This document shows, one piece after another, positions 23,003-23,527 of a stretch of DNA of 41,292 bases. Below the pieces are notes generated by a model that saw only the letters and a list, made by a program, of their open reading frames with translations, had not been told where the DNA came from and ran no database searches. The DNA is taken from IMG/VR virus record IMGVR_UViG_2718217862_000001. One strand, written 5' to 3'. The DNA is from a virus (lineage: Duplodnaviria > Heunggongvirae > Uroviricota > Caudoviricetes). Within the stretch, counting starts at the first letter, position 1. Every line of letters begins with the position of its first letter. The translations under genes and the position numbers were made by a program.

Positions 23003-23527
23003 ATGTACTCCAATGAAGAAGCCACCGACATAGCCTCCTCCATTCATAGTGAAACTATTTTCATCTACCCAGTAATGAATTCTTTGTAGAGTTGTGATCA
23101 ATACAACTCACTAATGGAGAGGCTTGTCCAACACGTTGGACAAGTTTCCTGTTTGATTTACTGGACACTATAGAAGGACAGAATGCCTTCATCACTCGAA
23201 TAACATCAATTAAGGAGGTTCAACATGTTTCATTCCACAAATCATCAGGCTGTAATTATGGCTGCATCAGCTTGTGCCACAGACCTTTTCCGCTTCACTT
23301 TGAGCCTGATTCATTTCTACCTGACCGGCTCGCCTCTATCTTTTTAATCCCCGCTTTATCCAAATTGCATTGCCAGAATGCCGACAACAGACTGACATTC
23401 AAATCCTGACTACCTCCAATAGGCTGAGCATCCACCTATATAGTTTTAATTTTCATCAATCCATTTAACTATCGTTTAATTGTTGTCACATAGGATTCTG
23501 CCGTTTTTAACAATGCAGGATAATAAG

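What the first reader, a model, noticed from the sequence alone, without database searches (positions are those of the whole stretch)
23225..23347. Unannotated 40-codon ORF with a consensus RBS upstream of bor
TAAGGAGGT, 6 nt, then ATG, encoding MFHSTNHQAVIMAASACATDLFRFTLSLIHFYLTGSPLSF, on the same strand as bor. It is too short for the ORF track.
Basis: seen in the sequence. Interest (0 to 1): 0.35.

Follow-up and report, generated by a model that had tools for sequence, protein, structure and literature searches.

The report
T7/SP6-promoter-driven small prophage gene
The 40-codon ORF is a real, conserved small gene of a lambdoid prophage, but its only visible promoters are ones read by the RNA polymerases of invading T7-like and SP6-like phages, so it most likely acts as a trap or sensor for those phages and not as a partner of bor.

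Summary
The ORF (23225-23347, +) and TAAGGAGGT (23211-23219) are present as described. An SD plus ATG alone is not beyond chance, but the frame is. In six lineages the C-terminal 18 codons give pN/pS of about 0.15-0.3 in this frame, and no such constraint in the antisense o-spanin frame. The ORF with its SD is intact in 36 of 38 unique variants.

Its context changes the reading. On the same strand, directly upstream, lie:
- a T7-group (Berlinvirus-type) promoter, 23099-23121;
- a hairpin typical of SP6-like phage genomes, 23116-23150;
- a promoter identical over 21/21 bases to four promoter-like sites of coliphage K1-5, 23156-23178.

Both promoters score within the range of those phages' own sites. 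The next-best site in the 41-kb window is about 20-28 bits lower. Shigella and Klebsiella prophages have the same layout, with promoters matching SP6-type or Klebsiella podophage promoters and with different small, mostly hydrophobic 36-40-aa peptides. No sigma-70 promoter was found. The cassette also occurs without bor.

Best reading: a cassette silent in the lysogen and transcribed by a superinfecting Autographiviridae phage's RNA polymerase, making a one-helix peptide that aborts or excludes infection. The function is inferred.

Tandem T7-like promoters in enterobacterial islands were reported by Chen and Schneider (2006). I could not read that paper.

The parts
23099..23121 (+). P1: T7-group (Berlinvirus-type) promoter-like site CAATACAACTCACTAATGGAGAG; predicted +1 is G23116
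   Evidence: It scores 29.0 bits with a PWM built from the 13 annotated Yepe2 promoters, which themselves score 26.9-37.3; the next best site in the window scores 9.5. Variant L123 matches Yepe2 phi9 at 22/23. The SfIV variant equals a promoter-like site of E. coli Berlinvirus PhiV-1 over -17..+3. BLAST hits fall on promoters of T7-group phages.
23116..23150 (+). Hairpin starting at +1 of the P1 transcript; core palindrome TGTCCAACACGTTGGACA at 23125-23142
   Evidence: Predicted energy is -18.3 kcal/mol, z = -4.1. The same palindrome is repeated up to about 4-5 times per ~44-kb SP6-like phage contig and occurs in K1-5, often just before a promoter. Sequence variation is in the loop. A fully compensated stem variant, TGTCTCAC..GTGAGACA, occurs in L228.
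23156..23178 (+). P2: SP6-group (Vectrevirus K1-5/K1E-type) promoter ATTTACTGGACACTATAGAAGGA; predicted +1 is G23173
   Evidence: It is 21/21 identical to four promoter-like sites of K1-5. It scores 37.0 bits with the K1-5 PWM, whose own sites score 26.2-37.5; the next best in the window scores 8.8. It matches 6-9 places per Vectrevirus genome. It matches the SP6 consensus at 18/21, with 0 matches expected by chance.
23173..23210 (+). Leader of the P2 transcript (52 nt to the ATG), with a small 5' stem at 23173-23190
   Evidence: The fold shows a 5' stem and an unstructured RBS region. Only 16% of leader columns vary among 37 unique cassettes, against 61-65% in the flanks.
23211..23219 (+). 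Shine-Dalgarno sequence TAAGGAGGT, 5 nt before the ATG
   Evidence: It is the only copy in the window. It is conserved in E. coli and Shigella variants. Klebsiella variants have AAGGAG(G) with similar spacing.
23225..23347 (+). 40-codon ORF (stop included): MFHSTNHQAVIMAASACATDLFRFTLSLIHFYLTGSPLSF. The N-terminal half is hypervariable and the C-terminal half is conserved.
   Evidence: Codons 20-40 have 1/2/7 variable sites at codon positions 1/2/3. The C-terminal 18 codons give pN/pS 0.15-0.34 in nearly all of the 15 pairs among six lineages. Codons 2-19 give pN/pS 2.26. AlphaFold2 predicts one helix, residues 2-34, at pLDDT 83.
23295..23414 (-). Context: 3' remnant of a LysC/Rz1-type o-spanin gene. 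It is intact in SfIV and in several Klebsiella prophages. The ORF's last 17 codons overlap it antisense.
   Evidence: Shown by the alignment with SfIV gp53. An intact o-spanin overlaps the ORF in L106 (reading). PGAP places 'lysC' under divergent matches.
23413..23821 (+). Context: lambda-type bor/iss moron, with upstream region from 23413 and CDS at 23528-23821
   Evidence: Positions 23413-23528 are 100% identical to the bor upstream region of lambda and phage 434. RefSeq names the gene iss.

Best explanation
The ORF is the coding part of a compact expression cassette, about 23099-23347, built in the style of T7/SP6-type phages. The order is: T7-group promoter, 5' hairpin, SP6-group promoter, short leader, near-perfect SD, then a 40-codon gene.

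It sits in a lambdoid prophage at the junction between the lysis and packaging genes, and it points against the late operon. No host-type promoter is detectable, so the cassette should be silent in a lysogen.

When a lytic Autographiviridae phage superinfects, its own single-subunit RNA polymerase should start at G23116 and/or G23173. Candidate phages are Berlinvirus/T7-group and Vectrevirus K1-5/K1E-group. The resulting mRNA should be efficiently translated into a one-helix, moderately hydrophobic peptide.

I infer that this peptide harms the infected cell or the infection, most likely at the membrane. That would be abortive infection or exclusion, protecting sister lysogens.

What is shown and what is inferred:
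- Shown: the anatomy, the identity of the promoters with genuine phage promoters, the host-matched promoter sets in other genera, and purifying selection on the reading frame.
- Inferred from established properties of T7-type polymerases, which need only the -17..+6 promoter: transcription during infection.
- Inferred only: the effect of the peptide.
For: 1. Promoters.
- P2 is 21/21 identical to four K1-5 promoter-like sites and scores 37.0 bits; K1-5's own sites score 26.2-37.5.
- P1 scores 29.0 bits against annotated Yepe2 promoters, which score 26.9-37.3.
- The next-best sites in the 41-kb window score 8.8 and 9.5 bits.
- BLAST of these ~35-nt stretches hits 6-9 places per Vectrevirus genome, and hits T7-group promoters.

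2. The hairpin is a repeated intergenic element of SP6-like phages. Those phages show the same order: hairpin, promoter, leader, SD, ATG.

3. Host matching.
- SfIV-type prophages carry an SP6/Zindervirus-type P2, 31/32 identical, at 4 places per phage genome.
- Klebsiella prophages carry an exact copy of a sequence repeated at about 10 sites, all on the gene strand, in Klebsiella phage VLCpiA2a.
- They also carry a K11-like P1 that hits 135 Klebsiella phages of about 40 kb.
- Variation among E. coli cassettes is multi-state at P2 positions -12..-10.

4. Coding.
- The C-terminal half has 1/2/7 variable sites at codon positions 1/2/3.
- pN/pS is 0.15-0.34 in nearly all pairs in this frame, while the antisense o-spanin frame shows pN >= pS in nearly all pairs.
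- SD, ATG and frame are intact in 36 of 38 unique variants.

5. The same architecture carries at least nine different peptides of 36-40 aa. All have positive GRAVY, and several have clear transmembrane-like segments.

6. No sigma-70-like promoter lies in 22900-23900 on either strand.

7. The cassette core is less variable than its flanks: 12-17% of columns vary, against 61-65%.

8. No Autographiviridae genome encodes a similar peptide, so this is not simply a captured phage gene.
Against: - There are no expression or phenotype data.
- The window's peptide is only moderately hydrophobic. Its best 19-aa Kyte-Doolittle window is 1.40, and the SfIV variant's is 0.90.
- The N-terminal half evolves with pN/pS above 1. 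That could mean lack of constraint and not an arms race.
- Decayed copies exist: L190 lost its ATG, and the first copy in L228/L218 has a ruined SD and ATG. One copy is cut by an IS66 element. So the cassette is dispensable.
- It is absent from every GTDB species-representative genome.
- T7-type phages degrade host DNA early, which could limit expression from a single chromosomal copy.
- The promoters could serve another output: read-through into iss, or antisense RNA over the lysis genes.
- The closest prior work (Chen and Schneider 2006) could not be read. It may propose or exclude functions.
Confidence: 0.55

Rival explanations
1. The promoters are functional sensors of an invading phage's polymerase, but the relevant product is not the peptide. 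It would be RNA or downstream genes: read-through into iss/bor in this window, or antisense transcription across the o-spanin, spanin, endolysin and holin genes in the SfIV-type arrangement. The ORF would be incidental.
For: T7-type polymerases are highly processive (established knowledge). The ORF always converges on, and overlaps, the 3' end of an o-spanin gene or its remnant. In this window, iss lies 180 nt downstream on the same strand. No terminator-like structure follows the ORF.
Against: Codon-periodic variation and low pN/pS in the ORF frame, and not in the o-spanin frame, show that the peptide sequence itself is under selection. A strong SD at optimal spacing is kept in all lineages, although the peptides differ. 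The downstream content varies: iss, a 125-aa ORF, or lysis genes.
Confidence: 0.15
2. The cassette is a fossil or selfish 'moron' picked up by recombination between lambdoid prophages and superinfecting T7/SP6-like phages. It would have no function for the prophage.
For: All regulatory parts (promoters, hairpin, leader style, SD) are of Autographiviridae type. Lambdoid genomes are mosaics with junctions right here. Decayed and interrupted copies exist.
Against: No Autographiviridae genome among 50,697 phage records encodes a related peptide, and no phage coding fragments flank the elements. The same slot holds host-matched promoter sets in E. coli, Shigella and Klebsiella, which would need repeated, selected replacement. 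The cassette core is much less variable than its flanks, and the frame is under purifying selection.
Confidence: 0.1
3. This is an ordinary lysogenic-conversion micro-gene, transcribed by host RNA polymerase in the lysogen and possibly together with bor/iss. This is what the first reader implied.
For: It lies on the same strand as iss and 180 nt upstream of it. It has a strong SD. Its position is a typical moron slot. Some gene callers annotate it.
Against: No sigma-70-like promoter lies in 22900-23900, where shuffles give 2.6 on average. The cassette occurs without bor, and lambda's bor occurs without the cassette. This reading leaves the two phage-type promoters unexplained.
Confidence: 0.12
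4. This is a chance open frame. Its conserved C-terminal half would only mirror selection on the o-spanin gene on the other strand.
For: The last 17 codons overlap the o-spanin 3' end. SD plus ATG alone is not beyond chance.
Against: ORF codon position 3 corresponds to o-spanin codon position 2. Over the last 16 codons across both peptide types, variable sites fall 2/3/10 on ORF positions 1/2/3, so most changes are silent for the ORF and change the o-spanin protein. In the o-spanin frame pN is at least pS in nearly all pairs. Conservation persists where the o-spanin is only a remnant, as in the window and Klebsiella L084-86.
Confidence: 0.05

Closest known systems
Tandem T7-like promoter regions in enterobacterial genomes (Chen and Schneider 2006, Nucleic Acids Res 34:1133; seen only as a title in reference lists)
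   Same: Both are clusters of T7-group-type promoters in tandem inside prophage-like parts of enterobacterial chromosomes. This locus fits that description, and may belong to the same family.
   Different: I could not read the paper. I therefore cannot say whether these loci, the hairpin or the small ORF were described, or which function was proposed. A review cites it for the sit island, yet the CFT073 sit prophage has no such promoters. As far as I can tell, the following are additions made here: the coding evidence, the peptide family, and the matches to phages sequenced later (Vectrevirus, Klebsiella Molineuxvirinae, Przondovirus-size phages).
Gene-expression units of T7/SP6-type phages, and the pET-type T7 promoter + gene 10 leader + SD design (own knowledge)
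   Same: Both have a 23-bp promoter, a transcript starting with a 5' stem-loop, a short leader, a strong SD at optimal spacing, and then the gene. SP6-like contigs show the same order, hairpin then promoter then SD then ATG.
   Different: Here the unit sits in a temperate siphovirus prophage that encodes no such polymerase. It combines promoters of two different polymerase specificities.
Type I toxin-antitoxin small membrane toxins (Hok, Ldr, TisB, Ibs, ShoB); a hokD gene lies in this same prophage at 30528-30683
   Same: Both are peptides under 60 aa with one helix. Most family members are hydrophobic. Both occur in prophages, and both are candidates for killing the cell when expressed.
   Different: There is no sequence similarity. 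There is no antisense RNA gene or host promoter. Silencing would come from lack of a usable polymerase, not from an antitoxin RNA.
Elements whose promoters are switched on by an invader's transcription machinery: satellite P4 late promoters activated by helper P2 Ogr; the integrated virophage Mavirus activated by the giant virus CroV; and the engineered phage-triggered suicide cassettes of Lactococcus (all from own knowledge)
   Same: The logic is shared: a resident element stays silent until the invader brings the factor that reads its promoters.
   Different: Here the factor is a whole, promoter-specific RNA polymerase. The unit is about 250 bp (P1 to the stop codon) with a single micro-gene. 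It has no replication, integration or packaging functions.

Membership tests
Autographiviridae (T7/SP6-type) single-subunit RNA polymerase promoters | A 23-bp -17..+6 sequence that scores within the range of the phage's own promoters | tested here: met
   P1 scores 29.0 bits, against 26.9-37.3 for the annotated Yepe2 promoters. P2 scores 37.0 bits, against 26.2-37.5 for K1-5's own sites. P2 is 21/21 identical to four K1-5 sites.
Autographiviridae (T7/SP6-type) single-subunit RNA polymerase promoters | Same orientation as a downstream SD-led gene, with a nearby intergenic hairpin, as in the phage genomes | tested here: met
   All promoters in all variants point toward the ORF. The same order is seen in K1-5 and in SP6-like contigs.
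Autographiviridae (T7/SP6-type) single-subunit RNA polymerase promoters | Initiation by the cognate polymerase in vitro or in vivo | not testable with these tools
   This needs run-off transcription, or 5'-end mapping during infection.
Tandem T7-like promoter islands (Chen and Schneider 2006) | Two or more T7-group-type promoters in tandem in an enterobacterial chromosome, inside a prophage-like region | tested here: met
   P1 and P2 lie 57 nt apart in a lambdoid prophage of E. coli.
Tandem T7-like promoter islands (Chen and Schneider 2006) | Sequence relationship to the loci described in that paper | not testable with these tools
   The paper is not held. The CFT073 sit prophage, linked to that paper by a review, lacks the cassette.
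Type I toxin-antitoxin membrane toxins | A small peptide with one hydrophobic transmembrane helix | tested here: inconclusive
   AlphaFold2 predicts one helix, residues 2-34, at pLDDT 83. The best 19-aa hydropathy window is 1.40 for the window peptide and 0.90 for SfIV, but 1.8-2.3 for Klebsiella types B, D and E.
Type I toxin-antitoxin membrane toxins | An antisense or trans RNA antitoxin with its own host promoter | tested here: not met
   No sigma-70-like promoter lies on either strand in 22900-23900. There is no relevant Rfam match: the only hit is a chance-level plant miRNA model, E = 0.33.
Type I toxin-antitoxin membrane toxins | Sequence membership in a described toxin family | tested here: not met
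   No Pfam, PHROGs or PADLOC family matches the window or SfIV peptide. The single weak PHROGs hit (E = 0.019) is to a family of unknown function, for one Klebsiella variant.
bor/iss moron (co-transcribed partner of bor) | Constant linkage with bor/iss | tested here: not met
   SfIV-type and Klebsiella cassettes lack bor. Lambda and 434 bor match only from 23413 onward.
Phage satellites with helper-activated promoters (P4, PICI) | Own integrase, replication or packaging-hijack genes inside the unit | tested here: not met
   The conserved unit runs from about 23099 to about 23414 and holds one 40-codon ORF.

The most novel reading that the evidence does not exclude
This would be a natural anti-phage device whose only sensor is a set of promoters for the invader's own RNA polymerase. 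Prophages of E. coli, Shigella and Klebsiella would keep an exchangeable array of promoters copied from the local T7-, SP6-, K1-5- and K11-type phages, placed in front of a fast-evolving toxic or excluding micro-peptide. Any such phage that expresses its polymerase would then trigger its own abortive infection. No antitoxin or protein sensor would be needed.
Probability: 0.4. Interest if true: 0.9.

Novelty: new variant of a known kind. Interest (0 to 1): 0.72.

Why it matters
If the reading is right, lysogens carry a very small, protein-sensor-free switch that turns an invading phage's polymerase against it.

- It would explain why tandem T7-type promoters sit in enterobacterial chromosomes. 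As far as I know, that observation dates from 2006 and was never tested.
- It would add a class of small genes that standard annotation (PGAP) and defence-finding tools do not report.
- It would matter for phage work on E. coli and Klebsiella. T7-, SP6-, K1- and K11-type podophages are favourite therapeutic candidates, and 633 of 5426 complete E. coli genomes carry this region.
- It shows that start-site mapping in uninfected cells can miss genes whose promoters are foreign.

If the defence reading is wrong, the locus still offers a clean case of an antisense-overlapping small gene under purifying selection.

Tried and rejected
- Rfam scan of 22400-24400: only a chance-level miRNA hit.
- Sigma-70 promoter scan: none found. 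A terminator-like hit turned out to be the phage-type hairpin.
- Pfam, PHROGs and PADLOC scans of the peptides: one weak PHROGs hit (E = 0.019, family of unknown function) for a Klebsiella variant, otherwise nothing.
- tblastn of a family peptide (Klebsiella type B) against 50,697 phage genomes: only lambdoid and temperate relatives, no Autographiviridae.
- HNH-anchored search of viral contigs: only 2 of 80 loci share the region, so the cassette is not tied to the HNH gene.
- Two scans of GTDB representative genomes, one anchored on the ORF and one on P1 plus the hairpin: 0 hits.
- Profile search of 1.84 billion protein representatives: only 5 hits, so the family is narrow or rarely called.
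- The idea that C-terminal conservation only reflects the antisense o-spanin: rejected by the codon-position and pN/pS tests.
- The idea that the cassette belongs to bor: rejected.
- A link to the sit island of CFT073: no promoters there.
- The truncated copy in L173: an IS66-family insertion, not a new payload.
- The 44-aa minus-strand ORF at 23061-23195, also open in SfIV: it has no SD and simply overlies P1, the hairpin and P2. I regard it as spurious.
- Ten literature searches: no described natural defence triggered by a phage-polymerase promoter. One relevant title (Chen and Schneider 2006) was found, but neither it nor Fisher et al. 2009 is held (91, 92, 98, 99, 108).

Full report
**Observation.** The window is an E. 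coli lambdoid prophage with an HK97-like head, lambda-like tail and Qin/Rac-like early region. Its late genes are on the minus strand:
- endolysin, 24311-24844;
- Rz, 23853-24329;
- HNH endonuclease, 22652-23002;
- small terminase, 22022-22504;
- large terminase, 20265-22022.

Between Rz and HNH, on the plus strand, lie iss/bor (23528-23821) and, 180 nt upstream of it, the reported ORF. Its ATG is at 23225 and its TAA at 23345-23347. It encodes 40 codons, MFHSTNHQAVIMAASACATDLFRFTLSLIHFYLTGSPLSF. TAAGGAGGT lies at 23211-23219, 5 nt before the ATG.

RefSeq/PGAP shows no feature under any listed match, and the region matches in 633 complete E. coli genomes. One phage record does annotate the ORF, and public protein sets hold it as 'hypothetical/uncharacterised'.

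The SD plus ATG is not significant on its own. 22 of 100 shuffles contain TAAGGAGGT, and 39 of 100 contain AAGGAGG-N4-8-ATG.

**The ORF is older than bor and overlaps an o-spanin.** Shigella phage SfIV has the homologous region at about 86% identity with no bor. There the ORF is again 40 codons with the same SD and ATG, and its stop is TGA in place of TAA. It reads MLRSKSQLTVIITTSPYAEDLFRFTLSLIHFYLTGSPLSF. Its last 17 codons overlap, antisense, the 3' end of the LysC/Rz1-type o-spanin.
- In the window, only the 3' remnant of that o-spanin is left (23295 to about 23414, minus strand).
- From 23413 onward the sequence is 100% identical to the bor upstream region of lambda and 434.
- So the bor/iss moron and a lambda-type Rz replaced most of an SfIV-type lysis cassette, and the ORF region stayed.

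**Is it coding?** I collected 97 instances (38 unique) from viral contigs, metagenomes and genomes. SD, ATG and frame are intact in 36 of the 38.

Among 18 unique E. coli-type ORF sequences:
- Codons 20-40 have 1/2/7 variable sites at codon positions 1/2/3. The position-3 changes are silent.
- Codons 2-19 have 8/9/4.

ORF position 3 faces o-spanin position 2. The changes seen are therefore silent for the ORF and alter the o-spanin protein.

Six lineages were compared over the C-terminal 18 codons: window, SfIV, Klebsiella B and C, L260 and L262.
- In the ORF frame, Nei-Gojobori pN/pS is 0.15-0.34 in nearly all of the 15 pairs. pS reaches 0.66 while pN stays near 0.10.
- In the antisense frame, pN is at least pS in nearly all pairs.

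So selection acts on this peptide's C-terminal half, whose motif is xFxLSLxH(F/Y)YLTG(S/Y)PL(S/T)F.

The N-terminal half differs at 13 of 18 residues between the window and SfIV. It has 14 nonsynonymous and 2 synonymous differences, pN/pS 2.26. That indicates either diversifying selection or no constraint.

**What lies upstream.** The alignment with the Shigella and Klebsiella relatives showed two sequences shaped like promoters of single-subunit phage RNA polymerases, on the ORF's strand.

P2, ATTTACTGGACACTATAGAAGGA (23156-23178):
- matches the SP6 consensus at 18/21, with 0 matches expected by chance;
- is 21/21 identical to four promoter-like sites of coliphage K1-5;
- hits 6-9 places per genome in K1-5, K1E and other Vectrevirus phages.

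P1, CAATACAACTCACTAATGGAGAG (23099-23121), is of the Berlinvirus branch of the T7 group:
- the L123 variant matches the annotated Yepe2 promoter phi9 at 22/23;
- the SfIV variant equals a promoter-like site of E. coli phage PhiV-1 from -17 to +3.

PWM scores:
- With matrices built from those phages' own promoters, P1 scores 29.0 bits (annotated Yepe2 promoters 26.9-37.3).
- P2 scores 37.0 bits (K1-5's own sites 26.2-37.5).
- The next-best sites anywhere in the 41-kb window score 9.5 and 8.8 bits.

Between P1 and P2 lies a hairpin (23116-23150, core TGTCCAACACGTTGGACA):
- it starts exactly at the predicted +1 of P1;
- its predicted energy is -18.3 kcal/mol, z = -4.1;
- the same palindrome is a repeated intergenic element of ~44-kb SP6-like phage contigs (up to about 4-5 copies each) and of K1-5;
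- in those genomes it, or the related TGTCTCAC..GTGAGACA, sits just before promoters, and the order hairpin, promoter, leader, SD, ATG is the same;
- a fully compensated stem variant occurs in one prophage cassette.

The P2 transcript would have a 52-nt leader with a small 5' stem and an open RBS. No sigma-70-like promoter is found on either strand in 22900-23900.

**Host-matched versions and a peptide family.**
- SfIV-type prophages carry ATTTAGGTGACACTTTAGAAGG. It is 31/32 identical to sites in SP6-type Salmonella phages, at 4 places per genome.
- Klebsiella prophages carry TTTAATAGTGGCGAGTATAGAAC. This is an exact copy of a sequence repeated at about 10 sites, all on the gene strand, in Klebsiella Molineuxvirinae phage VLCpiA2a.
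- Klebsiella cassettes also carry either a T7-group P1, or a K11-like one that hits 135 Klebsiella phages of about 40 kb.
- They hold two further promoter-shaped elements. One is 21/22 identical to a site in KP34-like phages.

Among 65 E. coli/Shigella cassettes there are three P1 variants and four P2 variants. The P2 differences at -12..-10 (CTG, GGT, CTT) are multi-state. From my own knowledge, these positions belong to the region that sets polymerase specificity.

Behind these arrays, always with AAGGAG(G) and a 5-6-nt spacer, lie different peptides of 36-40 aa. All end at the same stop, just before the conserved o-spanin 3' region. Besides the window and SfIV types they include:
- MLKISLLSTIVNHKITFAVIYFLLSLIHFYLTGSPLSF;
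- MHKPLIKLFLIKLLFSGFFQRFTLSLAHYYLTGYPLSF;
- MLEVLNTLAPFAPAINAIVILICSIIAKYYGVLPLPF;
- MLEYLKALSPYAASINCITFLICLLIAKYFGVLQYF;
- MKKNSLMLLACIYADSINDIINLICLLIAEHYGVLQYF;
- MSHLEVVLLITAYFSMAKAMIEFTLAFRQLIADLSRRS;
- two more.

All have positive GRAVY, and several have clear transmembrane-like stretches. The window type is only moderately hydrophobic. AlphaFold2 predicts a single helix, residues 2-34, at pLDDT 83.

Among 37 unique E. coli-type cassettes, variability by region is as follows:

| Region | Variable columns |
|---|---|
| P1 | 17% |
| Leader | 16% |
| SD-ATG | 12% |
| ORF C-terminal half | 15% |
| Flanks | 61-65% |

**Interpretation.** From established knowledge, T7-type polymerases need only their 23-bp promoter. 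A consensus promoter in the chromosome should therefore be used once a cognate phage has made its polymerase.

The cassette thus looks like a switch that is off in the lysogen and on during superinfection by Autographiviridae phages. Its immediate, selected product is a small helical peptide. The most economical function is abortive infection or exclusion, probably at the membrane. That last step is inference only.

The rivals are less well supported, for the reasons given in their entries:
- an RNA or read-through output (iss, or antisense RNA over the lysis genes);
- a recombination fossil;
- a host-transcribed conversion gene;
- a chance frame.

Points against my reading:
- there are no expression data;
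- the window peptide is only moderately hydrophobic;
- decayed copies exist (L190, and the first of two tandem copies in L228/L218), as does an IS66-interrupted copy (L173);
- the cassette is absent from all GTDB representative genomes;
- T7-type phages degrade host DNA early.

**Comparison with what is known.** The peptides match no family in Pfam or PADLOC. The only PHROGs hit is weak (E = 0.019), to a family of unknown function, for one Klebsiella variant. No Autographiviridae genome encodes a related peptide.

Ten literature searches found no described natural defence triggered by a phage polymerase promoter. [quoted passage not shown] That paper is not held. I therefore treat the existence of tandem T7-like promoters in enterobacterial prophage-like regions as known. 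I cannot say whether it covers this locus, the ORF or a proposed function. A review links it to the sit island, but the CFT073 sit prophage lacks such promoters.

For that reason I rate the finding as a new variant of a known kind, not as categorically new. To my knowledge, the new elements are:
- the selected micro-gene as payload;
- the peptide family;
- the phage-type hairpin;
- the host-matched promoter sets, drawn from phages sequenced since 2006.

**Verdict.** The locus deserves an experiment.

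Noticed in passing
window 23295-23414 (-) and 23413-23528 (+): There is a mosaic junction here. A 3' remnant of an SfIV/LysC-type o-spanin gene abuts sequence 100% identical to the bor upstream region of lambda and 434. 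So the bor/iss moron and a lambda-type Rz/Rz1 replaced most of an older lysis cassette.
   Followed up: yes
window 23228-23281 (ORF codons 2-19): The N-terminal half of the peptide is a local hot spot. 39% of its columns vary, and pN/pS is 2.26 between the window and SfIV types, while the adjacent leader and C-terminal half are conserved. This could be diversifying selection or lack of constraint.
   Followed up: partly
L228 rc 2587-3120 (also L218): The whole cassette is duplicated in tandem together with a piece of the HNH 5' region. The first copy has a ruined SD and start (TACGGAGCT...ACG). The second copy is intact and has a fully compensated hairpin variant, CTTGTCTCACACGTGAGACAAG.
   Followed up: partly
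L173 (+) 1-97; L190 rc ~7600-7870: One cassette is cut 4 nt after the P2 start by an IS66-family (ISEc22-like) element. Another, of Klebsiella type, has lost its ATG (now ATA) and carries in-frame stops. Both are decayed copies.
   Followed up: yes
L085 2410-2480 and homologous places in L084, L086, L106, L122, L196: Klebsiella cassettes hold up to four promoter-shaped elements in tandem. The third, TTTAATGTTACACGAGTAGGAAC, is 21/22 identical to a single site in KP34-like (Drulisvirus-size) phages. The fourth, AAATAAGTTACACAATAGAAATC, has no match yet. A further palindrome, GTCTCTTATAAGAGAC, precedes the array.
   Followed up: partly
window 30528-30683 (-): A hokD type I toxin gene (MKQQKAMLIALIVICLTVIVTALVTRKDLCEVRIRTGQTEVAVFTAYEPEE) lies in the same prophage. 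This is a second small membrane-toxin gene, of a known family.
   Followed up: partly
window 23061-23195 (-): A 44-codon GTG-started frame on the late-gene strand is also open in SfIV. It overlies P1, the hairpin and P2 and has no SD, so it is probably not a gene.
   Followed up: partly
window 27604-27679 (-): A single prophage-borne tRNA with anticodon CAT. ARAGORN calls it tRNA-Met, and RefSeq annotates the identical gene as tRNA-Ile.
   Followed up: no
L087-L089 4230-5123 (+); SfIV gp49: In SfIV-type prophages, a large plus-strand gene lies between the holin and the Q region, on the same strand as the cassette and about 1.6 kb downstream of it. It encodes 1050 aa with Metallophos and weak NACHT Pfam hits. 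It is a possible defence gene that read-through from the cassette could reach.
   Followed up: no
window 23211-23219: TAAGGAGGT is the only perfect 9-nt anti-16S match in the whole 41-kb window.
   Followed up: partly
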